Of a stretch of DNA of 64,000 bases, positions 30,462 through 63,965 are shown in pieces. Made by a program: the position numbers and the translations under genes. Numbering within the stretch: position 1 is the first letter of the stretch; each line of letters begins with the position of its first letter. The notes under the pieces are model-generated. The model did not search any database. It saw only the letters and a program-made list of their open reading frames with translations, and was not told the origin of the DNA. The stretch comes from Octopus vulgaris (Eukaryota), in NCBI GenBank assembly GCA_951406725.2, contig OX597818.1:96844001-96908000 (forward strand). The letters are read 5' to 3'.

Positions 30462-31128
30462 AAGGCGGTGATCTGGAAGAAACGTTAGCACGCCGGGCGA
30501 AATGCCTAGCGGTATTTCGTCTGCCGTTACGTTCTGAGTTTAAATTCCACCGAGGTCGACTTTGCCTTTCATCCTTTCGGGGTCGATAAATTAAGTACCA
30601 GTTACGCACTGGAGTCGATGTAATCGACTTAATCCCTTTGTCTGTCCTTGTTTGTCTCCTCTATGTTTAGCCCTTCGTGGGCAATAACGAAATAAGAAAC
30701 ATTAGCACGCCGGGCAATATGCTTAGCGGCGTTTCGTCTGTTTTTACGTTCTGAGTTTAAATTGCACCGAAATCGACTTTGCCTTTCATCCTTTCGTGGG
30801 GTCGATAAATTACCAGTTGCGTAGTGGGGTCGATCTAATTGACTGTCTCCCCAAAAATGTTGAGCCTTGTGCCTAAAGAAGAAAAGAACATCCACACACA
30901 CTTACATTTTAAGGGCAGCGAGCTGGCAGAAACGTTAGCACGCCGGGCAAAATGCTTAAGGGTATTTCGTCTGTCTTTACGTTTTGAGTTCAAATTCCGC
31001 CGAGATCGACTTTGCCTTTTATCCTTTCGAAATCGATAAATTAAGTACCAATTGCATACTGAGGTCGATCTAATCTACTGAGCTCCTCCCCAAAAATTCC
31101 GGGCCTTGTTCCAGGAGTAGAAAAGAAT
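30462..31128 (+). mobile_element. composite of three family-1 SINE units (tail B, tail A, tail A)
   Basis: Three repeats of the TCGACTTTGCCTTT..TCGATAAATT core; flanked by the near-duplication AATATTT(A/G)GATAG. Confidence 0.85.
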
Positions 31129-39420: not shown

Positions 39421-39683
39421 CGCATGTTAATCATTCTGGGTAATTATCAATCTGGATAATTATTTACTTGGTTACTATTATAGTTTCACTATTACTACTA
39501 TAATCCCTATCTTGTTATTTACTTGTTCACTACTATAGTTTCACAATTATCACTATACTTATATCATTACTATAAGGCTTAGAGGTCCTAATATTATCTC
39601 CCCTGATTTCTTTAGGCAACAAATGATGACAGATTTACGGCTGTTGGTTTAGTTACTGATGATGCTGCGGCGCTAAATGGAAG

Positions 39684-40096
39684 AGTGAGCTGGCAGAATC
39701 GTTAGGACGCCGGGCGAAATGCTTAGCGGTATTTCGTCTGCCGTTACGTTCTGAGTTCAAATTCCGCCGAGGTCGAATTTGCCTTTCATCCTTTCGGGGT
39801 CGATAAATTAAGTACCAGTTACGTACTGGGGTCGATATAATAGACTTAATACCTATGTCTGTCCATGTTTGTCCCCTCTATGTTTAGCCCCTTGTGGGTA
39901 ATAAAGAAATAGGTATTTCGTCTGCCGCTACGTTCTGAGTTCAAATTCCGCCGAGGTCGACTTTGCCTTTCATCCTTTCGGGGTCGATTAAATAAGTACC
40001 AGTTACGCACTGGGATCGATATAATCGACTTAATCTGTTTGTCTGTCCTCGTTTATCCCCTCTGTGTTTAGCCCCTTGTGGACAATAAAGAAATAA
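39684..40096 (+). mobile_element. family-1 SINE dimer, both units with tail B
   Basis: Head + body + tail, then the body restarts at GGTATTTCGTCTGCC; flanked by GAAGAGTGA (39680-39688, 40097-40105). Confidence 0.88.
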
Positions 40097-40286: not shown

Positions 40287-40531
40287 TCTATATAAATAAA
40301 ACTGAGAATGTGTGTTTGTCTGTCTGTGTGTTTCCCTAAAACTTGAGAACTACACAACCAATTTCATTCAAATTTTACACATGCCTTACTTAGGGTCCAT
40401 GTAGTGTGATGGGCAAAAAAATGTTTAACTTCTTGCCTAGAGCGAGCCCAAAGCAATATCATATCTTCTCCACTATTTCAGTATTACGTGTTAAAAGTGA
40501 AACAAAAACATATCTCTATTGTATGTATATG

Positions 40532-43547: not shown

Positions 43548-43773
43548 GTATATGATACGGGAATTTTAATGGAGATAACCTGCAGTATATCGTACATTTT
43601 TTGTCTCCGTATATGAGCTAAGTATTAATAAAATGTGGTATACTATAAAAATTTCGGATATATGTGTCTTAAAACATTCAGACAAGAAAATTCAGATGTA
43701 GCACATGAGGTATTATTCCTTACGAATATCCACATATCTATATTAAAAGTTTCACGATAAAAATATAGAAATA

Positions 43774-44323
43774 TTGGGCTGTCCGGAAAGTTCGTGCCGA
43801 TTTATAGTAGCTTATATTTCGACTTATTTTAGAACATGTTTGAGTCCATAAAATAGGATTTCACTACACCTCCATTTAGAGCACAGTTTAAGCTATCTTT
43901 TCGTGGAAGAAGGTTTATGTTCCTATAACCTGTGTTAATTCTGTAACCCTTTAAAATAAAAGATGAGAAAGTTCATTTTCGGCACTTGATGCTTTGGGAA
44001 CCAGACAAAAATTGCTGCAGCTCGGCTGGGACGTGTTACCAAAGATATTGTTCCTTCGGATTTCCACTTATTCAGGTCTCTGAAGAATAGTCTTAATGGT
44101 GAACATTTCAATTCCTAAGATGACGTAAAAAGATACCTTGATGAATTCTTTGCCTTGAAATCACTCCAATTCTGGGAAGAGGGTATTTTTAAGGTAAAGG
44201 AAAGATGGAGACGTATAGTGAAATGAAATGTTTCAGATTTGGTTCATTAAAAATGTAATGGCAAGTATTTAGTGACCTTTTACTTTCCTTTAAAAATTGG
44301 AACGAACTTTCCGGACAACCCAA
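43774..44323 (+). mobile_element. internally deleted mariner element
   Basis: TIRs TTGGGCTGTCCGGAAAGTTCGT / ACGAACTTTCCGGACAACCCAA with TA on both sides; remnant PSDFHLFRSLKNSLNGEHFNS*DDVKRYLDEFF. Confidence 0.88.
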
Positions 44324-44404
44324 TATAAACATAACAATGAAATACGAATATAAACATGAGAAATAAAAACCTAAATTGTAAGAGGCGATTAAAATTTTTT
44401 TCCT

Positions 44405-44472
44405 AACCTGCAGCCATTTCAGAAAAGTGGTTGTACGAAGTATTCGAAATTCAGCCCTCCTTCCTCAGGGTT
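44405..44472 (-). ncRNA. degenerate hammerhead-like motif in the repeat hosting the retroelement array
   Basis: AACC-CTGAGGA-AGGAGG..TTTTCT-GAAA-T-ggct-G-CA-GGTT. Stems I and II pair, but the cleavage triplet is GCA rather than NUH. Confidence 0.4.
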
Positions 44473-44529
44473 CCTTTCTCGAGCTAAAATCGAGCAAAAG
44501 GCATTAAGGTACTACATGGTGAGTATTCA

Positions 44530-46404
44530 TGATTTTTTTATTACCCACAAGGGGCCAACAAAGAAGGGACAATACAAATCGGGGAACTTAAAAATAACAA
44601 AAGTGGATGAAAATAAGACGAAGAAAAATTTAAAAAATAATGAGTTATGAAAAGATACTACAATGCGGTGCAATGTCCACTCGATCCCCGAAATCGAGTG
44701 GTTACATTTTTGTCAGTCTCTCCCATTTTGATTTTTTTCAAAATATTATTACAAAATTCACAAAGTTTACCACACAAAAATTTCATAGAGTTTCAAAATA
44801 CCTTTTGCTAATAGAATTTTCTTTTTTTTTTCTTCTTTTCCACAATTTTAAGTGTATTCTATTTCGTGCACCAGTGTGTCGTCCACGCGAGATGGACGCT
44901 CTTTCAATCGACACTTCGATTGATCCACCACGTACTTCCCGGCGGCCTCCATGAATTCATGGTAACTGTCCTCGTGGACTAGAGCACCCGCCTCAAACTT
45001 GGTTCCCACTTTAACCCATGATACTTTTCTTGTTTTCCTTATTATTTCGTTCATTTCAGGGCAGTCCCTGTATATTACTAATGTTCCATAAAATTGGTGT
45101 CCCCATTTCGAAACTGTGGTTTCTGTTGAGTGTTCCCTTGTCTTCCTTTTAGGGCTGATTACTTCTTTATTCTCTTCCCTTGGTTTCTCCCTTTCTCTCT
45201 TCTTTCTTTCCATATTTTCTTTTTCTTTCGGTATATTGTTTTTTCCTTTCTCCTGTCTCTGTTCTTTCTTGAGCTCATTTTCTGCTGTTTCTCTACTTTG
45301 TTTCTTTTGTTCTTTTCCTGATGTTTCTTTTTCCTTGTTTTCTTTTTCTTTCATTGTACTGCATTTTCTTTTCTCTTGTCGCTTTTCTTTCTTTTGTTCC
45401 TTTTCTGTTGTTTCTTTTTCCTTGTTTTCTTTCTCTTTCAGTGCATTGTTTTTTTTCCATTCTCCTGTTCTTTTTTTTCCTCTCTCTGTTCTTCTTCTGT
45501 AGTTTCTCCGCTCTGTGTCTTATTTTGTTCCTTTTCTGTTGTTTCTTTCTCCACTGTAAATTCATATAATGGGCATTCTGCCCTTATATGACCTCTTGTT
45601 CCACATAAGTAACAATTCGGCCTTCTTCCCTCTACAATTACGCCAATTGTCCTTCCATTTTCTACCTCTATCTGAAAGGGAATTCGCTCGATATTTTCTA
45701 TTGTGGGCATCAACCACAACTCCACACCGAATCCCTTCCAGTTCACGACATTGGTTTCTGTGATCGACCCAAGTTCTATTTCATCTTCAGCCGACCCTAG
45801 AATGGCTGTCACCAGTCATTCTGTCTTTATCTCCGGCGGTACGTTTGAGATCTTAACCCTTACTCCTCGTCTACCTTTGTATGTAGGTAGCATTATAAAA
45901 TTTTCCGCTCTGAGTACAGTGGAAGAAGGCGAGGCTGCCTCTTCACTTGTTGCACACCTCACTTCCACCGTACCATATTTCTTCCCTCTGCTTACATACG
46001 TCGCTTTGTCCATTATGTCACCAAGACACTTTTCTATATCTTCTATCGATATTCGCATTAGTTTCCTTGAGTTCTTGTCCTGTGTCCTGTATATTATCAT
46101 TTTGTTGTCTCTCTCCTCCGTTGTTTCTGCTGGAGGGATCAGCTTGACGCTTTCACCCTCCCTTTTTACATATTTCTCATACTCCTTCATTTCTTCCCTC
46201 TTGAAAGTTGCGTCTCTTATCACAAGCGATGATCCACTCTTCGTTGCGGCAACCCCCGTATATGTCTCCATGACTGAGGGTCGACGTTCCTACTATGAAA
46301 AGTAACGACAAGCAGCGGCAAGCGCCTCGCGCGATTCGATCCTGTTTCGTCTCTCTCTACAATTTTTCACTCTTCTTCACACAAAAATAACATCCGACTG
46401 CGGC
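44530..46404 (-). mobile_element. array element 1: ORF1-only non-LTR element (type X) with perfect 19-bp TSD
   Basis: Gag-like ORF1 46271->44848 (one stop, frameshift) with CYLCGTRGHIRAEC knuckle; no EN or RT. TSD ACTACATGGTGAGTATTCA at 44511-44529 and 46405-46423. Confidence 0.85.
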
Positions 46405-46451
46405 ACTACATGGTGAGTATTCAGTTGGTGAAAGTTCAGTTGTTGAGTATC

Positions 46452-48172
46452 GATGATGATTTTTTATTACCCACAAGGGGCCAACAAAGAAGGGACAATA
46501 CAAATCGGGGAACTTAAAAATAACAAAAGTGGATGAAAATAAGACGAAGACAAATTAAAAAATAATGAATTATGAAAAGATATTACAATGAGGTGCAATG
46601 TCCACTCGATCCCCGAAATCGAGTGGTTACATTTTTGTCAGTCTCTCCCATATTGATTTTTTCAAAAATTTTACACAATTCACAAAGTTTATCGCACAAA
46701 AATTTCATAGAGTTTCAAAATACCTTTTGCTAACAGAATTTTCGGGGGTTTTTTCCTTCTTTTCCACAAATTTAAGTGTATTCTATCTCGTGCACCAGTG
46801 TGTCGTATCTCTCCATGCGAGATGGACGCACTTTCAATCGACACTTCCATTGATCCACCACGTACTTCCCGGTGACCTCCATGTGTTAGCTGGAAGGGGT
46901 TGGGGAATTTTTTGCTGTTGTTCATGTGTGCTTGTAGTTTTTCTTTTTGTTTGGGGAGGGGAGTCCGGGGTGCTTTCTTTTTTACGCTTGTACGTTACCG
47001 TTACGTATTCCACCTGTTCGTCTTCCTTTTGTTTTTTCTCGTCTTCTTTTTCTGTTCTTCATTCTTTCTTCCGCTTTCTTTTTTCTCCTCCTTCTGTTTT
47101 CCAATTTGTTTTTTCTTTCCGTCTTCATCGCTCTCCTGCCTCACAGCAGTTTTTTTTGGGGGGAGGGGGGGACTTCAACTGCTGTTGTTTTTTTTTGGTA
47201 CAAGTAGAGCAAACGTGGCCCTTCTGCCCACACTTAAAGCATCTGGGCCTACGTCCCTCTACCGACTCACGAATTGTGTGTCCCTCCCCTACGTCGATCC
47301 TGTCGGGCAAACTTTCAAGGGTTTGGTTGTCCCCTTGAACAACCATCTCCAAACTCTGACCCTTCCAGTTCGTCTCCTCTTTCATCCTCATGCTTAGTAT
47401 TAATACCTTAGCTTCCACGTCGTACACGACTGCTGTTGCTGCCCACATCACATCATAACCGGCCGGTATGTCCTCAACTGTGATTTTAGCGGTTCGCCGC
47501 CCTAAATAAGTCGGTAACAACATAATTTCCTCATTTTTGAGAGTCCTCGTGGATATCTCCTTTGCTACGTTAGCCGACCCGAATTGTGCTTCAACTGTAG
47601 CACTTCGCACACCTCGGCTAACGTAGCGTACTCTGTTCCAGATGGGAGCCATGCATCGCTCCACCACTTCGTTCTTCACCTCTGCAATTCTCTTCTCCTT
47701 GATGTTGAATACCTTGTATACGACAGTTTTCTCTCGTATAGCCTGGACAGTTTCCTGGGGAGGTACCAGCTTAGTCTCTTCGCCATTTTTTACAATGTAT
47801 TGTCTGAACTGGAAGAGCTTGTCCATTGCTACTTCCAGTTCGATAACTTTGCCACCTACTGCAGCTGAAAAGCTTGGTTTGTCCTTGTTGACCGTTTCGT
47901 TTCCGATATTTTTAATTGTTCCCATCTCGGGAAAATCCTTTTTTGACGCAAGGTCACACTCCATCGTATCCAAAAAATAAATAACCTTGTCGCAACTGAC
48001 AAGAAATAATTATAAATGCAGGAATTTTCTGCCCCATAGGGCGAAAATTACTGTATGTCGTGAGACAACAGTTCAAAAACAAATACACAGTAAACACAAA
48101 CTGGGACGAACTCACAATAACAAATAAGCAGCAACGAGGTACACGCGCAGTCGAGAATAAAGCAACCGGAGC
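46452..48172 (-). mobile_element. array element 2: ORF1-only element (type Y ORF1, type X 3' end)
   Basis: ORF 47973->47125 with LLPTYLGRR and EGRRPRCFKCGQKGHVCSTC; 46452-46883 closely matches 44530-44953. Confidence 0.8.
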
Positions 48173-48187
48173 CTAAGGGTATCGATG

Positions 48188-50176
48188 AATAAGTGAATTT
48201 TTTATTACCCACAAGGGGCCAACAAAGATGGGACAATACAATCGGGAAAAATAAAAAAAGACGAAGACAAATTTTAAAAATAATGAATTATGAAAGGATG
48301 TACAAATGCGGTGTCATGCCCACTCGATCCCCGAAATCGGGTGGTTACATTTCGTCAGTTCTGTTCACAGGGTTTCAAAATACATTTTACCAAAAATACA
48401 TTTCACAAAATTTCAAAATACATTTTCATAAAAAACATTTTACAGAATTTTAAAATACTGTTCACCAAATTTCAAAATACATTTCACAAAGTTTTCAAAA
48501 TACATTTTCAAAAAACATTTTACAGAATTTCAAAGTACATTTCAAAACTACATTTCGTTTAACAAGGTTTTTCTTTTCTAATTCTTTTTTTCCCATAATT
48601 TTAGATAAATTCCATTACCTCTACCGGATCATGGTAATACTCCATTGTACGTGGAAATTTTACCAGTCGGCACCTCGCGTGATTTACCACGTTCTTACCG
48701 GAGGTCTCGACGAACGCATCGGCGCTGTCTTCATGGATTAGTGCACCCGTTTCCTCCCACTTAGTACCCATCTTAACCCATGAATATCCTTCTGTTCTGT
48801 CTATTAATTCCTCCATTTCCTCACTACACTTGTGTTGGACCAATGTTCCATAGAATTTATACCACCTATTCAATCCTGTGTTTTCTCTTGTCTTCCTTTT
48901 AGAACTTATTTCTTCTTTACTCTCCTCTCTTGGTTTCTCTCTTTCTCTCTTTTTGCTTTCCTTTTTTTCTTTTTCTTTCTCTTGTCTTTTTAGTTCTTTG
49001 TCTGTCGTCTCTCTACCTTGTGCCTTATGTTCTTTTCCTGTTTTTTCTCTTTCCTTCAGTGTACTATCCTTTCCTTTCTCTTGGCTCTGTTTTGGTTCTT
49101 TTTCTATTGCTTCTCTACCCTGTGAATTTTGTTCTTTTTCTGTTAAATTTTTCCCTTTGTTTTCATTCTCCTTCAGTGTACTGTCATTTCCTTTCTCTTG
49201 TCGTTTTACCGTTATTTCTTTTTCCTTGTTTTCTTTCTCCTTTAGTGCACTGTTTTTTCCTTCGTGTTCTTTTTTCTTCTCTTTTTTGTTTTCTTCTGTT
49301 GTCTCTCCACTCTGTGTCTTATTTCGTTCCATTTCTTTCTCCACTGTGAATTCGTATAGTGGACACTCTGTTCTTATATGCCTTCTTGTTCCGCATAAGT
49401 AGCAGTTTGGCTTTCTTCCCTCTACAATTACGCCAATTGTTTTTTTCATTTTCTACTTCTATCTGAAAGGGAATTCGTTCTATATCTTCTATTGTGGCCA
49501 TCAGCCACAACTCCACACCGAATCCCTCCCAGTTTACGACGTTGGTCTCTGTGATCGACCCTACTTCCATTTCCTCTTTAGCCGACCCTAGAATGGCTGT
49601 CACCAGCCATTCCGTCTTTACTTCCGGCGGCACGTTTGGGATTTTAACCCGTACTCCTATTTTTCCTTTGTATGTAGGCCACATAATAAAATTCTCTGCT
49701 CTGAGTACAGTGGAAGATAGCGAGGCCGCCTCTTCTCTTGTTGCGCACCTCACTTCCATCGTACCATATTTCTTCCCTCTGCTCACATATGTTGCTTTGT
49801 TCATTATTTCACCGAGACACTTTTCTATCTCTTCTATCGCTATTCTCATTAGCTTCCTCGTGTTCTTGTCTTGTGTCCTGTAAATTATTGTCTCTCTCCT
49901 CCATTGTTTCAGCAGGAGGGATCAGCTTAACGCTTTCACCCTCCCTTTTAACGTATTTCTCATATTCCTTTAATTGTTCTTTCTTGAATGTTACTTCTCT
50001 TATTACAAGCGACGCATCACTCTTCGTTGCGGCAACACCCGCGTAAGTCTCCATGACTGAAGGTCGACGCTCCTTCTATAAAAGTACTTACACGCAGCGA
50101 CAAGCGCCTCGCGCGATTCTGTCCTGCTTCGTCTCCTTCTACAATTTTCCTCTTTCACACAATAATAACGTCTGAC
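48188..50176 (-). mobile_element. array element 3: ORF1-only element (type X)
   Basis: ORF1 50054->48601 in three frameshifted pieces, homologous to element 1 along its length (METYAGVAATK.., CYLCGTRRHIRTEC); 3' UTR contains TTTCAAAATACATT tandem repeats. Confidence 0.85.
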
Positions 50177-50193
50177 TCTAAAGAGTATCGATG

Positions 50194-53100
50194 TATTTCT
50201 TTATTACCTATAAAAGGCTACATAGTGGGGGACAGAACAATCACTAATGATTTTACAATTATGATGCATTTTGGGATCGATAAAAATTTGGATGATAGTT
50301 ATACGGTTTCGAATGATAGTACATATACATTGGACAATTTTTACAAATGGAGTGGGGCAGGTCTACGGATCCCACGAACCCCGCCACGACACTTGGTCTT
50401 ACGTTTTTTTTTTCGTTTTTTTTCTCCGTCCTATCTCGTATTTATGAGGGACCTTTTACTCACGACATTTTTCCTTTCATTGAACACTTTCTTACTCAGG
50501 CTCCTCCTCTCTAGTTCTATTTGTCTTTTCATGTGGAATTTAAAAAAGACCACCAGACTAGAACCAGAGATGAAGTCGCCTGTTATCATCCCTATCATCC
50601 TTGTCTTCCATACTACTTGTTTCGCAGTTGAAACTACAGAAAGAAAACAATTCTTACCTTCTTTCGTTAAGAAATCCGGTGGTCTGATTTTTACAATTGA
50701 TTCAGCTGACAGCTGTACTCCTCCTCCATCTGACAACAGCTGTTCGGCAAAAACCCACATATCTGCCACCTCCGAACACTGTACGATCGCGTGCGAGACG
50801 GTTTCCTTGTCTCGCCCACACCTGGGACAGGTCGGGCTGACTTGGTATCCATGCCTTGCGAGTTTGTCCCGAACAGGTAAGGCACCTCGGTAACACTGCC
50901 AAGCCAAGGACTTCTGAAAATTATCCAGGGTCCCCGGCCCAAATGTACGTTGGAACAGACTGGCCAGCTGATTATCGTCGAAACCTAGGGTCTCCCCTAG
51001 CGTATCATGGCAACCGGCCTCTACAAACCCTCTATAGAAAATAGCGGTAGAACCACTGCCGCAGGCATTGCCCGAGCGGCGGAATAGGCGGAGTGCCTTG
51101 CGACACTCCGTATACCATGAACCCAACTTCGATCTACGATTATACCAGTCTTCCCGTCCACCGAAACTGGTGAACCTGGGGAACATCTGTTTCGCCAGCG
51201 GAGACCACACCCGTTCACCATCCAGATGGATCCACAGGTGCCTTAGCCTCAGCGCATTTCTGCGCATCATTAGCCACGGCATCCCTAGTCCACCCTTTAA
51301 CGGTTTTTGACAACAAATAGAGCGTCTCACAAGTGGATTCGAGCCCTTCCACAAGAAGAGGAAGAGCTGTCTTTCCAACCTGGTCAACCATGAATCCGGG
51401 CGAGGCACGACGGCAAGGCGGTGGGTGATCACCGATGCGATAAACACATTGGCTACCTCCGTCCTACCTTTCAGGGATAACCACCGCCAAGACCAGGTCT
51501 TGACTACTGCGGCCACCCTGCTCGATACTTCGCTCCAGTTCTTCTCTATTTGGAGGTCTGGTCCAAACCAAACCCCGAGCAACTTAATCGGACCCTCCGT
51601 CAAACGTCCCAACTTTTGCTCCTGTCACCGTCTCGTAAACCTCTATGGCCTTGCCTACTTTACGTAGGAGGTCCACTTCGGTCATGATGATAGTAATGTC
51701 ATCCGCGTACGCCGAAACCGACATTCCACGACCTGGCTGCCTCGGGATGCCGCTCAGTTTTCGCAGCAGCGGCTCAAGAGCCACTACATACATAAGCGGG
51801 GAGAGCGGACATCCCTGACGAACCGAGCATTTGACCTTGAACGGCTTAGAAAGAAAGCTGTTCACCCGAACTACCGAGTCGGTGTTGTCGTACATTTCGA
51901 TGATCCACCTGAGGAAGCCAAGACCCAGGCTGAACTGAGCCAGAACGGACACCAGGTAGTGATGGTCGACCCTATCGAAAGCTTTTGATTGGTCTAAATG
52001 GACCACTGCCCCTCCCTTGCGGGGATCGTTATTAATTCCCTCTATAGTGTATCTAATGAGATGGAGATTATCCTGAATGGACCTGCCCGGTACGGCACAC
52101 GTTTGTGCTTTCCCAATCAGTCCACTCGCGACACGCGCCAATCTGTTCGATAACACTTGGGCCAAAATCTTCAGCTCTGCGTTAAGCAGAGTGATGGGCC
52201 TAAAATTATCAATGACATCCCCCTTACTCGGGTCCTTCCTGACTAGTGTCACCACTCCCCGACGCACAGATCTGGGAATAAACCCATTCTGTTGCCAGTT
52301 CGCGTAGACGTTCGCCAGTAAGTCCCCGAACAAGTCCGGCATACTCTTGTAAAGCTCGTAGAGTAGACCATCCAGTCCCGGTGCCTTACCTGCACCGCAG
52401 TCAGCCATGGCCTCTATCACTTCAAAACCAGCCTCTTGACCTTCACCTGGGCCTCAGTGCCAGTTCGTATTGCTTCCTCTAAGTCCTTGACTAGTGTTGA
52501 TTCCTTTCTAGCCTCTCTAGCTACAAGATCTATACTATACCTAATAGACTCGTATCGGATGGCTCGCTTGAGGGCATACCACCATTTGTTGTTAATAATG
52601 GATCCGGTCATGGCCCTCTGAATAATTAACCTAATCCTGTCACTGTACTCCTTAATCGCCAAGAGGGACGTATTAAGTTTCCAGTAACCAGAACCTCTAT
52701 TTGTCTTATCTATGTCTAGCCTACAGGTGACTATCTTGTGGTCACTGTAGCTGACCATGAGGAGCTGTGGACTCTTAGCTAGGTTTCTATCTACCTTTCT
52801 AATTAATATCCTGTCTAAGTATGACTTGGAAGATCCGCCGTCTCTTGACCATGTCCACAATGGCACGTTCGGATGTTCCAGCCTATATGGATCTACCAGC
52901 TCAAAACGTCTTAGTAGATCCAGGAAGCAAGCATTTCCTTTCCTATCTGTACGCGAGCCTTCACAGTCTACCCGCGCATCGCATACTGTGTTGAAGTCTC
53001 CTAACATTACTAAAGGATGCGTTGTACTCGGAAAATTACCGAGGTTCCGAAAATAATCACTTTGCCCTTTGTTTTCGTTGGGTGCGTAAATCGCACCCAG

Positions 53101-55191
53101 GCTGATTGTCTTACGACTACTGAACGTCAAATCAACGACGACCAGCCTACCCTCTGGATCTGCAAAAATCAACTTTTTCTCAGAAACCCGGTTCTTTTTA
53201 CACAGGACCAACACCCCGCTTCCGCCGGACGACGGGTTCGGAGAGATAATTCTCTCGTAACCGTCAAACAGCGGGAGCAGATCTCTTGGCCCCTTTAACC
53301 GGGTTTCTGTGGCAACAACAACATCTAAATCTCGTGACCTGATGTCATTTAGGAGGCGCCCTTGCTTCCAGTTCGACATCAGGCCACGCACATTTATACA
53401 CCCTACACAAATACGAGACATTTCTTACCTTTTTAAAAAGTGTTCTTTATATCCCTGTTGGTCGTGGGGGTGAAGTCCGCCTTAAAAAATAACTCGTGCA
53501 GGTCGAGTCGCGGACCCCTGACATCCCCCGAGTACTGCGCACTTATGATATTGTAGTTTAACATGTCCATCTTGTATACTTCCACGTTTTTTGGCAGTTT
53601 TTTAAAGGTCTGCACTTTTTCTGCAGTTGGTATGTTTTCCATTTCGCTCTTTAGTCTATCGTTTTCTTTGTTTATTGCGGCGAAATCTGTCTGGAACTCG
53701 GTAATTTTGGGGGGGGGCTTTGTGGGGGTGATGGGGAGGACAGCGGAGAGTATGATGGGGGGGGAGCACTGGGATATGTTTGGGAGGGGAGAGTATTGCT
53801 CGGCACTGAGGGGTGGGGGTGGTTCGGGTTGGACTGGGGGGGGGTCTTTTCTTTTTTACCTTTTTGTGGGGAACCGTGGTTGGGTGGGGTAGGTTTCCAC
53901 CCTGGGTGTTAGTCTTCTTTGTATATGGAATGGGTGGGTTTGAATCACTATTTTTCCTTTTTTTCTTTTGCCTCGGTGTTATGAAGGCATCTTCCTCTTC
54001 CTGTTTCTTCTCTTCTTTTGTCTCTGTGTTCTTCTTCTTCTTCGCCTCTTCTTCGGCTTTTTTCCTCTTCCTCTTTCTTGCGGGTGGGGCATTCCGCTCG
54101 GATGTGGCCCTTTTCGCCACACCCGTAGTATCTTGGCTTTCGCCCTTCTACCACCACCCGCAAGTTTATTTCTTCATCGAAGTTTATGTTTTCTGGCACC
54201 TCCTCTAGAGTTTCTGGGGCCGCCTGCACTAGTATCTGTAGTGTTTGGCCTCTCCAGTTCTCTTTTTGCATGTTTACTATGTTTAAAATGTTTATTTTAT
54301 TTTCTAGCCCTATTAATAGGGCTGGAATGAGGCACTTCACCTCAATTTCAGGGGGAATTTCTTCAATTCTTATTTTTGATGTCCTTCGTCCCATATACGA
54401 AGGTAGGAGAATTATTTCCGTTGTTTTTATGGGGTAAATAGAATGCTTTTTTGCCTGCTCTTCTTCTTTGAAATATACTGTTATTGTAGCATACTTCTTG
54501 CCCCATGTTACATAGTCTATGTCTCTCCATATCGGCTGGAGACATTTTTCAGCTTGTTCCTTGGTAACTTTATCAATTTTTTTCTCTTTTATAATAAAAG
54601 ATTTGTATATCACTGTTCTTCTCAATGTGCTGTTTTTAATCTCTTTTGGGAGGGTGGCCTTTACGCTGTTCCCCTCCCTTGTAAACATTGCTTTGTATTT
54701 ATCAAATTCTATGTCTTCTACTTTTATTTCTTCAGATTTCCTGCCGGCTGCGGCTGCAAAGTTGTACATCTTTTTTTCTTTCTCGGTTTCACCCGCAGGT
54801 GAAGTATCACATACTGTTTTTGGTTTGGACGCATCCATTTCTTTTTTAGACTGTATGGTTTTCTTTGTAGGTGAACCTACAATGGTTTCCCTTGAAGGTG
54901 AACCTTCGTCGGTTACATCTTCATACATCCTTTCGGAAGAAAGAACGTTTTCTTTATTCATTTTCAGCAAAAATGAGTGGGGGTTTGGGGGGGGGGGGGT
55001 TCTATGCTACAAAGCACACTTTCCCTTCCTTATAGGAGGGGACTAACAATATTTTCCTGGTCAAACACCAGGTGAATAACAGTTCAATTAACAATTTTTA
55101 ACAAGAGTTTAACACCACTTCAATATCCAAAAACAGATAAACATTTACTTACAAGCAATATAACATATGACAAAATCCAGTGTTACTGAGT
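50194..55191 (-). mobile_element. array element 4: L1/Tx1-group LINE with ORF1 and ORF2 (APE-RT-zinc finger), disabled
   Basis: ORF1 54970->~53433. ORF2 53421->50431: INVRGL, ETRL, IYAPN, GDFN, YLDR, SDH, GYWKLN; KAPGLDG, NFRPITLLN, DQSKAFDRVDH, RQGCPLSP, YADD; CPRCG..ETVSHAIVQC. Two frameshifting internal deletions (~52420, ~51600). Flanked by TCTAAAGAGTATCGATG (50177-50193, 55192-55208). Confidence 0.92.
50431..53421 (-). pseudogene. Tx1/L1-type ORF2 (endonuclease / reverse transcriptase), split in three
   Basis: ORFs 52417-53421 (APE), 51584-52420 (RT) and 50431-51612 (C-terminal CCHC-type finger). Confidence 0.9.
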
Positions 55192-55208
55192 TCTAAAGAG
55201 TATCGATG

Positions 55209-56861
55209 ATTTCTTTATTACCCACTAGGGGCGACATAGAGGGGACACTACAAGACATTGGGGACATAGAACATTATAAAATAAAAGTATGTGAGATGAA
55301 ATTTTGCAAATGATAATATGAAAGTGATGCTAACGGCCCAATCCGCCAGCACCACTTACCTGTCCTTCATAACCCATCGTCATTTATCATCTTCAATCAA
55401 AAGCCCATATGTCTTTATCATTCTCTCAGTCTTCCTTTCAATCTCTTTCACCGTCTCGTCCGCAAATGTTACCTTAATCACTTTCACACCCTCATTTACA
55501 CACTTCGCCATAATTCCCTCCATTTGTTCCCTAGGCCCCACCGCATAACTCCCTTCTGCTCTCTCATACCATGAATAATTGTTTATTATGTCTTTCGAAT
55601 CCTCAGTGTCCTCTCTTTTTACGAAACATAAAATATGGGGCTTGGGATCTTGTTTACTTTGTGTGTCTGCGTTGTTTTTTGGTTTTCTTGTAGGCGGGGA
55701 ATGGGTGGAATCACTGTTTGTAGGGGAAGGATGGGACTCAGAGGGTGCGGGTGGTGTTGGGGTGGGTTGGGGTTCACCATAATTCGATTTTCTTCTCTTT
55801 TTTCTCTTCTTTCTTGCATCTTCCCATTTAGTCTGAGCTTCCTCCTCCTCGGTTCTTCCTCCTCAACTTGTTTTTGCTCCACCTCCTCCTTTTCCTGGTT
55901 CACAGTTTCCTTTTGTGGGGGAGGGCAGTTATCTCCTATGTGGCCCCTCAGGCCACACTTATAGCATCTTGGTGCTCTGTCCTCCACCCATACTCTCATT
56001 ACAATATTTCCCATGTTTACGTTGTCGGTCATTCTTTCGAGTGTACCCTCCTCCGCTTGTACACTCATTTCAAGCGTCTTACCTCGCCAGCCTTCACTCT
56101 TTACGGTAGCCTGCAAGATGTCTACCTACTCTTCGACTTCTTTTATTACCGCTGCAACAACCCATTCACCTTCTATGTGGGCGGGGGGTTATCTCTTCCA
56201 CTCTTATTCTTGTGGTTCTCTTGTTCATATATGTTGGTAATAAGATTACCTTTTCTGTTTTGATCGCCTTTGCTGCCATTTTTCTCGCCATATTCTTACT
56301 TCCAAACTGCACCATTATCGTTCCGTACTCACTACCTCTCGCCACAAATACAATTTCTTCTTCCACTCTCCTTAACGCCTCCTCAATATCTTCCATTTTT
56401 ATCATCTCCACTCTCTTGTTATCATTTACATATGTCCGGTACTTAATAAATCTTTTCTCAAACCATTCACTACGTTTTTCTGGTGGTAATAGTTTTACCT
56501 CTCCTCCTTCCTTCGTCATATATGCCTGAAAGCCTGGCAACTTTTCCAGGTCTCTCTCCTTTTCTTCTGTCTTCCTTGCTGTTCCATCATACGTCTTACC
56601 GACCTTTACATCCATTTTATTGACGGCACCAATTAGCTCGTCCTCGGAGGTCGATGCCTCCGATATACTCTCGAATAGCCTTTCTTCTGCCGTCTCTCCC
56701 ATTAGGGAGGGGCGGTCCATCACTTTTTGTCTGTCTCAATACAGACAGACAACGGCCGACAGACCGAAAACAGTGTAACAAAGTCGTATAACAAAACGTA
56801 TAATTCAACAGCAAATTCAACAGCAAATAATTGGCAACTTACAATAAAGTCTAAAAGAGAG
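55209..56861 (-). mobile_element. array element 5: ORF1-only element (type Z)
   Basis: ORF1 56723->~55380, frameshifted, with VARGSEYGT, LLPTYMNKR and CYKCGLRGHIGDNC; no EN or RT; shared 3' tail. Confidence 0.82.
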
Positions 56862-56893
56862 AGTTTTTGAGTATCCTCTAAAGAGTATCGATG

Positions 56894-57058
56894 ATTTCTT
56901 TATTACCCACTAGGGGCGACATAGAGGGGACACTACAAGACATTGGGGACATAGAACATTCTAAAATAAAAGTAAGATGAAATTTTGCAAATGATAATAT
57001 GAAAGTGATGCTAACGGCCCCATCCGCCAGCACCACTTACTTGTCCTTCATAACCCAT
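56894..57058 (-). mobile_element. array element 6: 165-bp 3' stub of type Z
   Basis: Nearly identical to 55209-55377; adjacent to TCTAAAGAGTATCGATG (56877-56893). Confidence 0.85.
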
Positions 57059-57350
57059 ATACGATGTGTTCTATGGTGTTGATTCAGTAATTATCGATCA
57101 TCGTTAATTATACTCAATGTTAGACTGTATGAGGTGGTTAATGTATGATGCTAATGTCGTGGATTTTTTTATATAGTGGTGAATAAATGAATTCTTGCGT
57201 CCCCTATATCTATTTCTAAAATCAGTAGTACTCCCTATATAAATTTTCCTAAGTCCGGAGCGTTAAACTAATAAACCTGTTTGCTGTTTACACACCCGTC
57301 TTCGTCTTTTGTTCGTTTCTTTTGTAAATTCCAAATATATATTTATACAT

Positions 57351-57438
<88 letters not shown>

Positions 57439-57631
57439 TTGAGAACTACACAACCAATTTCATTCAAATTTTACACATGCCTTACTTAGGGTCCATGTAG
57501 TATCATAGGCAAAATAAATTCTAACTTCTTGCCTGGGGCGAGCCAACAGCAATATCATATCTTCTCCACTATTTCAGTCTTATGTATTAAAAGTGAAACA
57601 AAAACATCTCTATTGTATGTATATGGATGTG

Positions 57632-57694
<63 letters not shown>

Positions 57695-57876
57695 ATATAT
57701 AGTTGTATATGTATACATGTATTTCTATAGATATACATGTATGTATAGATGTATATATATATAGATGTACATGTAATATGCACACATATATATACACACA
57801 TATATATGCATACATATATACACCCATACACACATACACACACCGATCCACCTCCACCACACACACACATACATAG

Positions 57877-58200
57877 GTACAGGTGTGGCTGTGTGGTAAC
57901 AAACTTGGTTCCAAAACACATGGTCCTCAGTTCAGTTCCACTGTGTGGTAACTTGGCATGTGTCTTCTGCTATAGCCTGAGACCAACCAAAGCCTTGTCA
58001 GTGGATTTTGTAGACAGAAACTAAAAGAAATCAATTGTATGTATATGTATGTATATATGTAAGTCTATGTGTGTGTTTTTGTGTTTCTCCCTCATCACTG
58101 CTTCACAACTGTTCGTTTATTTACATCCCCATAACTTACTGGTTTCACAAGAAGAAACTGATAGAATAAGTACCAGATTTATCAAAATATAAAAAAGCAC
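57877..58200 (+). mobile_element. SINE family 3 (tRNA-like head); 3' part repeated at 58310-58387 and 61267-61480
   Basis: TGGCTGTGTGGT A-box-like and GTTCAGTTCC B-box-like motifs, then AAAGCCTTGTCAGTGGATTTTGTAGAC. Confidence 0.7.
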
Positions 58201-58254
58201 TACGCAGTGTCTCATATTTTTGTTTGCCCACTCAGTTGTATCTACCAATTTATC

Positions 58255-58296
<42 letters not shown>

Positions 58297-58387
58297 CATA
58301 CATATATATATATATATGGATTTCGTAGACAGGAACTGAAACAAATCAATCGTATATATATGTATGTATATATGTAAGTGTATGTGT

Positions 58388-61266
58388 TTTGGTATTGGTA
58401 ACATGAATGACAATGGTCAGAGACTACTTGAATTTTGCACATACCATAACCTGTGCATCACTAACACATTCTTTACCAACAAGACATCCCACAAGGCATC
58501 TTGGAGACCTCCAAGATCTCACCACTGGCATCAGCTGGATCTCATCATTACACGAAGATCCTTTCTGAATTCTGTTCAACTGACCCGTAGTTACCACAGC
58601 GCGGATTGTGACACAGATCATTCACTAATAAGAAGCAGGGTGAAGATTCTGCCTAAAAAAGTCCATCAATCCCAGAAAATGGGCCGACCACTTCCAGAAC
58701 CTCGGACCCTACACTGCGACAATGTTTTGCTGTTTCTATCAAGGTTGTCCTCAGTAGCTGCCCAACCTCCTCTGCTGAAAGTAGGTGGAATTATATCAGG
58801 GAAGCTTTGTATACCACATCAATAGATACTTTCGGCATGAGAGAAAGGTAAAACCCAAATTGGTTCAATGCTGAGCTCTCAGAGCAGGAAACAGTTATCG
58901 AAGCAAAGCGTGCAGCTCTGATGCAATACAAGAGTGATTCTTCTACAAAGTCACTCGAAGAACTCAGAAAGGCAAGAAATAAAACCCAACTGACTGCTAG
59001 ACGTTGTGCAAATAGGTATTGGCAGGAAATCTGTCAGAGTATCCAGTCAGCTGCTGACAGTGGCGATACCCGTGAGATGTATGCCGGTTTGAAGAAGGCC
59101 CTCGGTCCATCCGCAACCAAGTCAGCCCCTCTGAAATCAACTACTGGGGATCTCATCAAGGACCAAAGCAAGCAAATGGATACATGGGTGGAGTACTACC
59201 AGGTTCTCTACTCACGAGAGACCACGGTAGCCGAGGCTGCAATAGAGGGTATCAAGATCTTGCCAGTCATGTGTGAACTTGGCAGTCTGCCATCTATAGC
59301 AGAGCTCACCAAGTCTATTGACTCCCTAGCAAGTAACAAGGCTCCGGAAAAAGACGGCATCCCCTTAGAGATCATCAAAACCGGCAAAAACACCATCCTG
59401 CTTCGGCACATTCATGAGCTTCTGTGTCAGTGCTGGGAAGACGGTACAGTCCCTCAGGATATGGGGTATGCTAACATCATTACGCTGTACAAAAACAAAG
59501 GTGACCGTGGTGATTGTAACAATTACCGTGGAATATCTCTTCTAAGCACTGTTGGAAAGGCCTCTGCTCGCATACTCAACGGAGAGCTTGCTAGGGGCAC
59601 TAGGTCTGTGGGAAGACCGTTCTTACGATACAAGGATATTTGCAAAAGGGACATGAATGCCTGCAACATCAATATTAGCAGTTGCCAGCAACCGTGGAGA
59701 TTGGCGACGTACCGTAAAAGAAACACAAAGGAGTGACATAGAGAGAGAGGAGAAATGGAAAGACAAGAAAAGGGTCCAGGCTGCAACTGCTTGCTTCTCG
59801 AATTTATCTAGAATCGCAGTGTGGCTTTAGAAGAAGCAGATCAACTATTGACATGATATTCTCCATACGCCAACTTCAGGAGAAGTCCAGAGAGCAGAAA
59901 ATGCCATTATATATGGCCTTCATTGATCTGACAAAGGCCTTTGACTTGGTAAGTAGAGAAGGCCTCTTCATCCTGCTCCAAAAAATCGGATGTCCACCAA
60001 AGCTGCTGATGATCAAATCTTTCCATGATGATATGCAAGGCACCATACAGCACAATGGTTCAACATCAGCCGCCTTCCAAATAAAAAATGGGGTAAAGCA
60101 AGGTTGTGTCCTTGCTCCTACAATATTTGGCATCTTCTCGCTGCTGCTGTCACATGCCTTTGAGACATCAGATGATAGAGTGTTTCTGCACAGTAGAAGT
60201 GATGGGAAACTGTTCAATCTCTCGCGTCTGCGTGCCTAGACCAAAATCAGAAGCGTCCTGATCAAGGAGATGCTATTTGCTGATGATGCCACTCTGGTAT
60301 CACACGCAGAAGAAACCCTGCAAAGGGTCATCAACTGTTTTGAGCACGCATGTGGCACCTTTGGCTTAGTTATCAGCCTCAACAAGACCAACATCATGGG
60401 CCAGGCTACATCGGACATCCCAAACATACATATTGGAGACCACAGACTACAGGAGGTGAAGAAGTTTACCTATCTTGGCTCTACCGTCACCTACAACCTA
60501 TCCCTTAATGCTGAGCTCAATATATGCATTGGCAAGGCAACTGCTGTGATGGCCCAACTCTCCAAACGGACATGGGACAACAATAAGCTGACCAAGACCA
60601 CAAAAATGAAGATTTACCAGGCATGTGTACTTAGCACTCTACTGTATGGAAGTGAAACTTGGACGCCATACGTCGCCTAAATATCTTTCACCTGCGCTGC
60701 CTCCGGAAAATCTTTCGCATCAAATGGCAGAATCATGTCTCCAACAAAGATGACCTCAAGCAAGCAGGAATACCAAGCATGTTTGCACTCCTCACACAAA
60801 GACGTATGAGATGGCTTGGACATGTTAACCGTATGGAATATTGCAGAATTCCCAAGGACATACTCAACGGAGAGCTTGCTAGGGGCACTAGGTCTGTGGG
60901 AAGACCGTTCTTACGATACAAGGATGTTTGCAAAAGGGACATGAATGCCTGCAACATCAATATTAGCAGTTGCCAGCAACCGTGGAGATTGGCGACGTAC
61001 CGTAAAAGAAGAAACACAAAGGAGTGACATAGAGAGAGAGGAGAAATGGAAAGACAAGAAAAGACGTCAACAAGAAACTATGACATCACAACCAGCCAAG
61101 CAAAGTCTTCGCTACATTTGCGGCACCTGCCAGAGGGAGTGTTTGTCCAGGATAGGACTACACAGCCACAGCAGGAGATGTATTAGGACATGAAATGTAA
61201 AAGCCGGACTAGATTATTTTATGCATAACTCCATTGTCTCCCAAGACAAAAAGGATGCCAACAACA
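58388..61266 (+). mobile_element. 5'-truncated RTE (BovB-like) LINE, decayed
   Basis: NDNGQRLLEFC, DTDH, KAPEKDGI, NYRGISLL, FIDLTKAFD, GVKQGCVLAP, LFADD, LYGSETWT, RWLGHV, CGTCQRECLSRIGLHSH; (AAC)n tail. Confidence 0.92.
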
Positions 61267-61544
61267 ATATATATGGATTTGGAAGACAGGAACTGAAACA
61301 AATAAATCGTATATATATGTATGTATACATGCAAGTGTATGTGTGCGTCTTTGTCTCTGTGTTTCGCCCTCATCACTGCTTAACAATTGCTGTTCATTTA
61401 TTTACATCCACATAACTTACTGGTTTCACAAGAACAAACTAATAGAATAAGTACTAGGCTTATCAACATAAAAAAACACTAGGCTGTGTCTCATATTTTT
61501 GTTTGCGCACTCATTTGTATCTATCAATTTATCTTTGTATGTGT

Positions 61545-61557
61545 GTGTATATATCTA

Positions 61558-61591
<34 letters not shown>

Positions 61592-61612
61592 CCTATCTAT
61601 CTATCTATCTCC

Positions 61613-61682
<70 letters not shown>
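61545..61682. repeat. (ATCT)n(CT)n(AT)n compound microsatellite
   Basis: Directly visible. Confidence 0.95.
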
Positions 61683-61683
<1 letters not shown>

Positions 61684-62823
61684 TACATATATAAAATACC
61701 TTAACTCCCAAATTTTAGTCATTTCTTTTATGGTCCAAAACTAGGTCAAAAGTACTGAATGGATCTTTATGAAATTTGGAAACTATATTCTATGCATAAG
61801 GGCCATAAGCCCCATGACAATTCATATATTTTTGCTGTTGATGAAATTTTAACCATAGATATTAGACACGAAGTAATATTTATAAAATTTCATCTTCTTA
61901 CAAAGTTAGAAAGACCCCTCCATGGGGACTTAACACCCACAATTTTATCATTTTATCTAAGCAAAGACGAATACAGTTGTGCTCTTGGAAGCTGTAGGGT
62001 TACCCGAGCATAAAAGTTGGGAATTATTTCTAATTGAATGGTACAACAGTGTAACAGTTTGCTTTGACATACACTTACATTGTGATTTCTGCAATGTGGT
62101 GCATAAATTGTCAAGTAAATGAGAGGCATATTTGCCTCCACTGATTCAGTTGCAAAGTGTTGAGTAAAGTTATTTGATTGCAGACCTCCTTTCAGTCTTT
62201 TTATTATCACTCGGTCACACATAGTCTCCAGATGGTAACATTGATTTCAAGGCCTTCCCAGATAAGTGACTGGTTATTCAAAGACATTTATAGATTTTAA
62301 ATTTATTCTGTCCAGTTACGTATCAGTATAGTGGTCATTTGCAAACTCCAGAGGTGACACTTCAATTTATCCTTAGCCCTCACGTCACACAGTTGTTAGT
62401 GTTGATTTCAGTTGGGTCACGCCCTTCCAATTGCTATAGATTCGTAATGCATCTTACGGCTGTGCATGTCACCTGGATGGTGAGGAATCCTACATTGGGA
62501 GTGGTAACGACTAGGGTAGGGTACCTGACTGCTTATTGTGATCATTCGTCTTTTGGTTTCCTGTAGCTTTGTTCTCTTTTACAAACCCAGTGAACATATA
62601 TTTCCTCTTTCAAAGAAATTCAAACAATAGATATAAGACCCGAGTTTAAAATATTTTCAACAATTCAACTTCTCTGGTTGACATTAAGATGCCCACCCCC
62701 AACAGGGGACTTAACTCTCACATTTTAGAGCTCCATGACCTTCATTTTTCAGGAGCAAAATCTTTTTAACAGGTTCAGTAAGACTGGAATCTTGGAATAT
62801 GCGCATAAAAATCAGTAGTATGA

Positions 62824-63378: not shown

Positions 63379-63965
63379 GGCGACGAGGTAACAGAATCGT
63401 TAGCACGCCGGGCGGACGAAAAGCTTAGCAACATTTCGTCTGTTTTTATGTTCTAAGTTCAAATTCCGCCTAGAGCGACTTCGCCTTTCATCCTTTCGGG
63501 GTCGATAAATTAAGCACCAGTGAAACACTGCGGTCGATGTAATCGACTTAATCCGTTTGTCTGTCCTTGTTTGTCCCTTCTGTATTTAGCGCCTTGTGGG
63601 TAGTAAAGAAATAGGTATTTCGTCTGCCGTTACGTTCTGAGTTCAAATTCCGCCGAGGTCGACTTTGCCTTTCATCCTTTCGGGGTCGATAAATTAAGTA
63701 CCAGTTACGCACTGGGGTCGTTATAATCGTCTTAATCCGTTTATCTGTCCTTGTTTGTCCTCTCTGTGTTTAGTCCCTTGTGGGCAGTAAAGAAATAGGT
63801 ATTTTGTCCGTCCTTACGTTCTGAGTTTAAATTCCGCCGTGGTCGACTTTGTCTTTCATCCTTTTGAGGTTGATAAAATAAGTACTAGTCAAGCACTGGG
63901 GTCGATGTAATCGACTAACCCCTCCTCCAAAATTTCAGGCCTTATGTCTAAAATAGAAAGGATTA
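63379..63965 (+). mobile_element. family-1 SINE trimer (tail B, tail B, tail A)
   Basis: One head; the body restarts at GGTATTT after each TAAAGAAATA tail; the last unit ends in CCAAAATTTCAGGCCTT..AGAAAGGATT. Confidence 0.88.

What the first reader, a model, noticed from the sequence alone, without database searches (positions are those of the whole stretch)
44511..57075. Target-site specificity: every junction lies next to a GAGTAT motif, and three neighbouring motifs of one host were all hit
Seen at the 3' junctions (+ strand): ggtGAGTATtca (44521), gttGAGTATcgatg (46445), ctaagGGTATcgatg (48173-48187) and tctaaaGAGTATcgatg three times (50177, 55192, 56877). Removing the inserts reconstructs ...catggtGAGTATtcagttggtgaaagttcagttgttGAGTATcctctaaaGAGTATcgatgtgttctatgg..., which has three motifs within ~55 bp, each occupied. 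The element tails end in AAAT(CAT)n on the element strand, overlapping the target CATCGATACTC. Inference: the endonuclease recognises GAGTAT/ATACTC, tail-target microhomology helps priming, and each TSD regenerates the target so arrays keep growing.
Basis: partly seen in the sequence, partly recalled or inferred. Interest (0 to 1): 0.75.

Follow-up and report, generated by a model that had tools for sequence, protein, structure and literature searches.

The report
LINEs landing behind TATA boxes
In an octopus-like genome, six related jumping genes are stacked at one short spot inside another transposon, a spot filled in 31 of 77 copies examined; their relatives do not follow the six-letter motif first proposed but mostly sit about 30 bases behind TATA-box-like sequences, so they likely seek transcription start sites and likely borrow the promoter they land on.

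Summary
The junction motifs are present at the stated coordinates, but they are duplication copies of only two host motifs. The 'third motif' is not host DNA: the 17-mer occurs only in this array and begins with element 3's own 5' end. The real host is a ~10-kb non-autonomous Helitron-like repeat. Its ~80-bp site is a true hot spot: 31 of 77 copies are occupied, with about 29 distinct junctions, all but one in the same orientation. GAGTAT is not the determinant: it is exact at 0 of 15 full-length and 0 of 27 truncated independent sites. A TATA-like box starts 26-33 bases upstream of the nick at 10 of 15 full-length sites, against 12 of 105 background windows. Best reading: Tx1-like LINEs and ORF1-only partners are positioned by core promoters, insert in sense at predicted start sites and borrow the promoter. 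Transcription and protein tethering are untested. The scan reported this habit before on other DNA of this genome; I took it as a lead and tested it here. I found no such report in print.

The parts
40287..40523 (+). Probable 5' end of the Helitron-like host (TC start after an A)
   Evidence: Same piece lies upstream of the left arm in other copies and follows a 3' end in L095
41617..44529 (+). Left arm of the ~10-kb host repeat, with captured Tc1/mariner pieces (mariner-like piece 43770-44325)
   Evidence: 88-95% identical to other copies; 146 first-look candidates for 44370-44530; transposase remnants in L079 (family labels recalled)
44511..44529 (+). Left TSD copy of E1, holding host motif 1 (GAGTAT at 44521)
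   Evidence: Exact 19-mer repeated at 46405
44530..46404 (-). E1: ORF1-only non-autonomous element with CCHC knuckle and the shared 3' tail
46405..46456 (+). Host hot-spot DNA: right TSD of E1, spacer, motif 2 (46445) and left TSD of E2
   Evidence: 20-mer has 77 matches genome-wide
46457..48178 (-). E2: ORF1-only element; 3' 420 nt 93% identical to E1, different ORF1
48179..48196 (+). Host DNA: right TSD of E2 continuing as the normal host sequence up to the E3 junction
   Evidence: Matches empty copies
48197..50182 (-). E3: ORF1-only element of the E1 family (77% identical); its 5' terminus supplies the first letters of the 17-mer
50176..50193 (+). E3 5' terminus plus TSD copy of motif 2; source of the repeated 17/18-mer
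50194..55191 (-). E4: autonomous-type LINE with ORF1 (53948-55006), APE (52417-53424), RT (51584-52453) and zf-RVT (50431-51624); ORF2 is broken over several frames
   Evidence: Pfam PF03372, PF00078, PF13966, weak PF00098; best solved relatives are LINE-1 ORF2
55192..55208 (+). 17-bp TSD copy between E4 and E5
55209..56875 (-). E5: ORF1-only element; its 5' end (about 56853-56875) carries pieces resembling two target sites, likely tags from donor loci
56876..56893 (+). 18-bp TSD copy between E5 and E6
56894..57055 (-). E6: 3' 160 nt of an E5-family copy (96% identical), cut by a deletion
57056..62561 (+). Right arm of the host, resuming about 360-400 nt past the hot spot (TATA-like box lost here), with a captured RTE-like LINE; 3' hairpin not found at this locus

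Best explanation
Six related LINE-type elements (one carrying endonuclease and reverse transcriptase, five carrying only ORF1 or a fragment) are stacked in one orientation at a hot spot of a Helitron-like repeat, and the spot is likely chosen because it is a predicted core promoter: full-length relatives mostly insert about 30 bases behind TATA-like boxes, likely at transcription start sites, and likely use that promoter to be transcribed. Shown: the hot spot, its orientation bias, the TSD structure, the TATA-like spacing across unrelated hosts, and target-like sequence on element 5' ends. Inferred: the first nick falls on the promoter's template strand near +1, with lesser positions near +10 and +40; the insertion complex is held there by the transcription-initiation machinery; family-specific endonuclease tastes pick the exact base; the ORF1-only elements use the ORF2 of complete elements through the shared tail; each TSD leaves target DNA beside the promoter, so arrays grow. 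GAGTAT marks the junctions here because it lies in that zone and is recopied by every TSD.
For: Host-first census: 31 of 77 copies occupied, 44 empty, 2 rearranged. About 29 distinct junction/tail types among 37 occupied copies, which argues for mostly independent events. One short opposite-orientation insertion against 37 in one orientation. No non-SINE tail elsewhere in 123 kb of host sequence in 20 loci. TATAWAWR (<=1 mismatch; consensus recalled) starts at -33..-26 from the TSD-defined nick at 10 of 15 independent full-length hosts vs 12 of 105 background windows (p=1e-5); exact 4 of 15 vs 0 of 105. It holds for all members of 9 of 15 host clusters and is absent from all sense-strand windows downstream of the nick. 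A second look at five further hosts gave 3 of 5. In this host 7 of 15 TSD-defined nicks have the TATTTAAA start at -27..-30 and 4 at -37..-42; that box is well conserved (pi 0.04) beside a variable landing zone (pi 0.17-0.31). 5' ends carry non-local target-like sequence: L333 and L347; the right TSD copies of L316-L318 show a variant absent from their left copies. Both other E4-family copies that reach the 5' terminus sit in this hot spot.
Against: Transcription from the predicted start was not shown. TATA is near-palindromic: the antisense control also peaks (7 of 15), and the zone is simply AT-rich (0.79). 5 of 15 full-length hosts lack the box, and truncated copies show it at only 5 of 27. 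In this host 4 of 15 nicks lie 51-70 or more nt from the box, including a recurrent site at motif 1. Families reuse their own sub-sites, which points to a sequence component. At this locus the box has been deleted, so the distances for E1-E6 are inferred from sister copies. Only 7 of 44, 15 of 84 and 4 of 30 tail-defined copies lie in this host.
Confidence: 0.6

Rival explanations
1. The site is chosen by DNA shape or accessibility (an AT-rich, bendable or nucleosome-free patch about 30 bp upstream of the nick) without any contact with transcription factors.
For: AT content peaks at -32..-25 in both full-length (0.79) and truncated (0.71) sets; the antisense control also peaks; nicks in this host are spread over about 45 nt.
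Against: The signal is on the upstream side only, narrow (9-10 of 15 in one 8-nt window, at most 4 in windows that do not overlap it) and stronger in sense; insertions are almost all in one orientation.
Confidence: 0.15
2. Each family's endonuclease has its own short sequence target, helped by pairing of 5' tags with the target, and several such targets happen to cluster in this stretch.
For: Families recur at their own sub-sites: one after motif 1 in four copies, one at TATCG-like ends, one at TTGTTC-like ends; E5-family sites often end in AGAG(A); TSD-like tags exist.
Against: One family uses unrelated host sequences that share only the TATA spacing; many different families converge on the same 80 bp.
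Confidence: 0.13
3. One reading: one endonuclease recognises GAGTAT/ATACTC and inserts next to it.
For: All six junctions here, and several in other host copies, lie within 7-20 nt of the motif; weak one-mismatch excess at truncated sites (6 of 27 vs 4 of 81).
Against: Exact motif at 0 of 15 and 0 of 27 independent sites; the offset from the motif varies widely; the third motif is a TSD product; arrays also grow at sites without the motif.
Confidence: 0.06
4. No targeting: a few chance insertions were multiplied by Helitron transposition or duplication.
For: Some occupied copies share a junction (groups of 2-4); a SINE at -1557 is carried by most copies, and an E1-family scrap was amplified by another repeat.
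Against: About 29 distinct junction/tail types in about 80 bp and none in the other 123 kb of host surveyed.
Confidence: 0.05

Closest known systems
Tx1-clade LINEs that target other transposons: Xenopus Tx1 in Tx1D; crocodilian Tx1-Mar, SINEU, Tx1-9_AMi (PMC4494074; passages and section 20 read)
   Same: APE-RT LINE with non-autonomous partners, preference for a site inside another transposon, tandem insertion, weaker preference in some families (13-23%), and a suggestion of transcription from flanking host DNA.
   Different: Host is Helitron-like; the same families use many unrelated hosts linked by TATA spacing rather than sequence; partners encode ORF1. That paper attributes target choice mainly to the endonuclease, and the passages read do not mention start-site targeting.
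Ty3 of Saccharomyces cerevisiae (PMC6673722; abstract and opening text)
   Same: Insertion at transcription start sites, with local sequence modulating frequency.
   Different: LTR element with integrase, at RNA polymerase III genes; here a non-LTR element at TATA-type, presumably polymerase II, promoters, with tethering untested.
TRE5-A of Dictyostelium (PMC3159450, PMC5391098; search listing and start of abstracts)
   Same: Non-LTR retrotransposon positioned at a fixed distance from a transcription-factor complex rather than by target sequence.
   Different: Inserts about 50 bp upstream of tRNA genes via TFIIIB/C; here insertion is at the predicted start site, in sense.
HeT-A of Drosophila (PMC1636488; passages)
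   Same: Head-to-tail arrays and transcription from a promoter outside the element, which adds upstream sequence to the RNA 5' end; that HeT-A encodes only ORF1 is recalled.
   Different: HeT-A is telomeric and driven by the neighbour's 3' end; here arrays are interstitial, each unit has a TSD, and the promoter likely belongs to the host.

Membership tests
Tx1 clade (L1 group) LINE | ORF2 with APE, RT and C-terminal zinc finger; ORF1 with CCHC knuckle | tested here: met
   Pfam PF03372, PF00078, PF13966 on E4; PF00098 on E1 above cut-off and weak on E4 and E5
Tx1 clade (L1 group) LINE | RT phylogeny places it with Tx1 rather than L1 | not tested
   No named Tx1 reference was obtained (searches gave no useful names); best solved relatives are LINE-1 ORF2, which supports the L1 group only
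Tx1 clade (L1 group) LINE | Target preference: one sequence type in more than 20% of flanks (criterion of PMC4494074) | tested here: inconclusive
   7 of 44, 15 of 84 and 4 of 30 tail-defined copies are in this host, below 20%; 3 of 3 E4-family copies reaching the 5' terminus are in it
Strictly sequence-specific LINE (single nick in a fixed motif) | Constant motif and constant offset at independent insertion sites | tested here: not met
   GAGTAT exact at 0 of 42 independent sites; variable offsets within the host
Helitron (host) | 3' GC-rich hairpin shortly before a CTAG end, followed by T | tested here: met
   10 of 10 right ends printed; not found at this locus, whose right end is cut
Helitron (host) | 5' TC after an A; no terminal inverted repeats | tested here: inconclusive
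   A|TC at 40287 and the same piece upstream in other copies at variable distance; no terminal inverted match seen in three copies; no single copy read end to end
Helitron (host) | RepHel coding capacity or a matching autonomous partner | not tested
   L079 shows only Tc1/mariner-like and RTE-like remnants; no partner searched
Start-site-targeted retroelements (Ty3, TRE5-A type) | Fixed distance and orientation relative to a promoter element | tested here: met
   TATA-like box at -33..-26 in 10 of 15 full-length hosts, none downstream in sense; statistical, not absolute
Start-site-targeted retroelements (Ty3, TRE5-A type) | Target shown to be a transcription start, and element protein shown to bind a transcription factor | not testable with these tools
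   Only assembled contigs of guessed RNA runs were available; no binding test was run

The most novel reading that the evidence does not exclude
These octopus LINEs are promoter parasites: their insertion complex docks on the polymerase II initiation machinery, nicks the template strand at the start site and so installs each full-length copy under a ready-made promoter. If so, the known 'target specificity' of Tx1 elements for other transposons may often be start-site targeting, and an APE-type LINE could be steered by a transcription factor instead of by DNA sequence.
Probability: 0.4. Interest if true: 0.8.

Novelty: new variant of a known kind. Interest (0 to 1): 0.62.

Why it matters
Target choice in APE-type LINEs is usually credited to the endonuclease reading DNA sequence (PMC4494074). 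Here many families converge on unrelated sequences that share only a TATA-box spacing, which points to positional targeting of polymerase II promoters by a non-LTR element. I did not find this described in the library searched. It makes a clean test possible (move or mutate the box and see whether insertions follow). It would explain why complete copies, ORF1-only partners and arrays collect inside other transposons, and it implies that such elements can also land on gene promoters. The specific claim under review, GAGTAT recognition, is a local artefact of TSD copying.

Tried and rejected
Rfam scan of the window: no match, so no known RNA gene as target. A piggyBac, Kolobok or CACTA terminus as target, suggested by short motifs near 44505, was dropped once the host proved to extend about 5 kb each way. 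RNA evidence: no RNA holder listed. Contigs of four guessed-RNA runs were laid on an empty copy; one run steps up in depth near the predicted start, but contigs cannot show starts or strand and the step also coincides with the end of the variable zone, so it is not used. The independent test of the TATA rule on two further families could not be completed: searches returned places only; by coordinates 1 of 40 and 7 of 40 lie within 12 kb of a known host site. Nine E1-family 5' matches at a second host turned out to be mostly an amplified scrap without tail, so they were not counted as independent insertions. A first measure of variability with fixed windows was confounded by indels and redone on an alignment; diversity also rises 150-290 nt to the right, so the landing zone is variable relative to its immediate flanks only. 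Insertion order within the array cannot be fixed: both growth towards the TATA side and E3-first fit the TSDs. Protein searches gave no clade names. No supplementary files were consulted; the target tables in the supplements of PMC4494074 could bear on novelty.
Full report
What is there. Between 44530 and 57055 lie six elements on the minus strand that share a 3' tail. E4 encodes ORF1, APE, RT and zf-RVT, with ORF2 broken over several frames; its closest solved relatives are LINE-1 ORF2. E1, E2, E3 and E5 are 1.7-2.0 kb and carry only ORF1-like frames; E6 is a 160-nt 3' piece 96% identical to E5. I call them Tx1-like; clade placement by tree was not tested.

Checking the observation. The junction motifs are at the stated places. 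GAGTAT is not enriched in the window as a whole (36 vs 32.8 +/- 5.3). The reconstructed three-motif empty site does not exist. The 17-mer has three matches in the genome, all here. Uninterrupted copies of the host have two motifs 30 nt apart. The extra letters are the 5' terminus of the E1/E3 family, seen also on L329 and L334, copied by the 17- and 18-bp TSDs of E4 and E5. E5 also carries a short piece at its 5' end that matches the usual host sequence rather than this locus's variant, likely a tag from its donor site. The DNA right of E6 belongs 413-448 nt from motif 1 in intact copies, so a deletion removed the rest of E6 or its junction and about 360-400 nt of host. The tails end in a single AAAT(C)A-type end with no CAT repeat at 62 TSD-defined junctions.

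The host. Both flanks belong to one repeat of about 10 kb. Ten of ten right ends show a GC-rich hairpin and CTAG followed by T, and a TC-starting piece lies upstream. It contains Tc1/mariner-like, SINE and RTE-like remnants. It is best read as a non-autonomous Helitron; no autonomous partner was sought.

A real hot spot. A 20-mer of the site has 77 matches, and all were read. One search lists 78 distinct contexts, including three found otherwise and merging identical ones; restricted to the 77 places, 31 are occupied, 44 empty and 2 rearranged. One search lists 39 first junctions; removing one duplicate locus and one inverted context leaves 37, and merging shared junctions leaves about 29 types. 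One short insertion is in the opposite orientation (L222). In 123 kb of host sequence from 20 loci no non-SINE tail lay outside the hot spot or its arrays; some of those loci were chosen because they were occupied. Seen from the elements, 7 of 44, 15 of 84 and 4 of 30 tail matches are in this host, although the known sites cover only a few millionths of the genome. Of 8 matches to the E4 5' region, the three that reach the terminus are all in it.

GAGTAT is not the rule. One search found 93 TSD calls; 16 were followed directly by another tail and 15 more were dropped (SINE tandems, a microsatellite, internal duplications, array-internal sites), leaving 34 long and 28 truncated copies in 15 and 27 independent host clusters. 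Exact GAGTAT lay next to the nick in 0 of 15 and 0 of 27; with one mismatch in 2 of 15 and 6 of 27 (background 4 of 45 and 4 of 81; p=0.015 for the truncated set). Arrays also grow at sites without the motif. Within the host, individual families do reuse their own sub-sites, so some sequence taste exists.

What the sites share. A TATAWAWR match (<=1 mismatch) starts 26-33 nt upstream of the nick, on the element's sense strand, at 10 of 15 full-length hosts against 12 of 105 background windows (p=1e-5); exact matches are 4 of 15 vs 0 of 105. Truncated copies show 5 of 27 vs 12 of 189 (p=0.045), significantly fewer than full-length ones (p=0.003). No sense-strand match lies downstream of the nick in the full-length set. 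Five further hosts with weaker TSD calls gave 3 of 5. Against this: the window was set after seeing some data; the antisense control peaks too (7 of 15); and the zone is AT-rich. In this Helitron 15 TSD-defined nicks place the TATTTAAA start at -27..-30 (7), -37..-42 (4), -51 (1) and -68 or further (3). If this locus had the common short form before its deletion, E3 would fall at about -32, E2 and E4-E6 at about -40 and E1 at about -73 (inference). The box is conserved (pi 0.04) while the 60 nt behind it vary even in empty copies (pi 0.17-0.31), three of which carry TSD-sized tandem duplications without an insert, as expected from repeated nicking.

Mechanism. Because the element lies in sense, the priming nick is on the template strand of the predicted promoter, at the upstream edge of a TSD that is mostly 11-25 bp long and up to 35 bp. 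A transcript starting there would read the TSD and then the element, giving 5' tags; such non-local target-like sequence is seen on L333 and L347, on L316-L318 and on E5. I infer tethering to the initiation complex, promoter borrowing and trans-mobilisation of the ORF1-only partners through the shared tail; none of these was tested.

Comparison. Tx1 elements that prefer other transposons, tandem insertion and possible transcription from flanking DNA are described (PMC4494074, passages and section 20). Start-site or factor-directed insertion is known for Ty3 (PMC6673722, abstract) and TRE5-A (listings and abstract starts), both at polymerase III genes. External promoters adding 5' sequence are known for HeT-A (PMC1636488, passages). 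A recent octopus repeat annotation lists active L1-Tx1 and Helitron families, and its main text has no occurrence of 'target', 'nested' or 'promoter' (PMC13282606, term search). Six searches found no report of a LINE targeting TATA-type start sites; subscription journals are mostly absent from that library. Earlier notes of this scan reached similar readings on other DNA of this genome and in other animals; they are leads, not support.

Verdict. Observation partly confirmed; interpretation partly supported. The locus is a good example of a strong, orientation-specific hot spot that is better explained by position behind a TATA-like box than by GAGTAT: a new variant of target-preferring Tx1-like LINEs, interest 0.62.

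Noticed in passing
window 39680-40080, 30450-31100, 63380-63930: An abundant SINE, often in 184-bp tandem units, shares the 3' tail of these LINEs; LINE-family copies insert repeatedly at one base about 11 nt inside this SINE's head (L098, L101, L102, L247).
   Followed up: partly
window 16100-28200: Seven diverged exon-like repeats that read like hemocyanin functional units (label recalled, not scanned).
   Followed up: no
L195, L197, L205 (empty host copies): Tandem 19-bp duplications at the hot spot without any inserted element, two or three copies long; possibly nicking and duplication without insertion.
   Followed up: partly
L392-L400: A second repeat family carries a tail-less scrap of the E1-family 5' end whose terminal ~20 nt match the variable zone of this host; direction of transfer unknown.
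   Followed up: partly
L361/L408 and L345/L403: Insertion sites with a TATA-like box or an upstream CCAAT-like motif that look like ordinary gene promoters rather than transposons.
   Followed up: no
G000:C5:100.95-100.98 Mb and C2:158.83 Mb: Near-identical head-to-tail arrays of one 1.7-kb ORF1-only family (12 and 5 pattern matches) at sites without GAGTAT.
   Followed up: partly
(tail-defined loci): Dispersed copies are mostly short 5'-truncated pieces of 100-900 nt, whereas full-length copies concentrate at a few repeated hosts; unexplained.
   Followed up: partly
L199: Inversion of the host with a breakpoint at the hot spot, next to an element tail.
   Followed up: no
window 57437-57617: A second copy of the Helitron-like 5' piece nested in the right arm of the host.
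   Followed up: no
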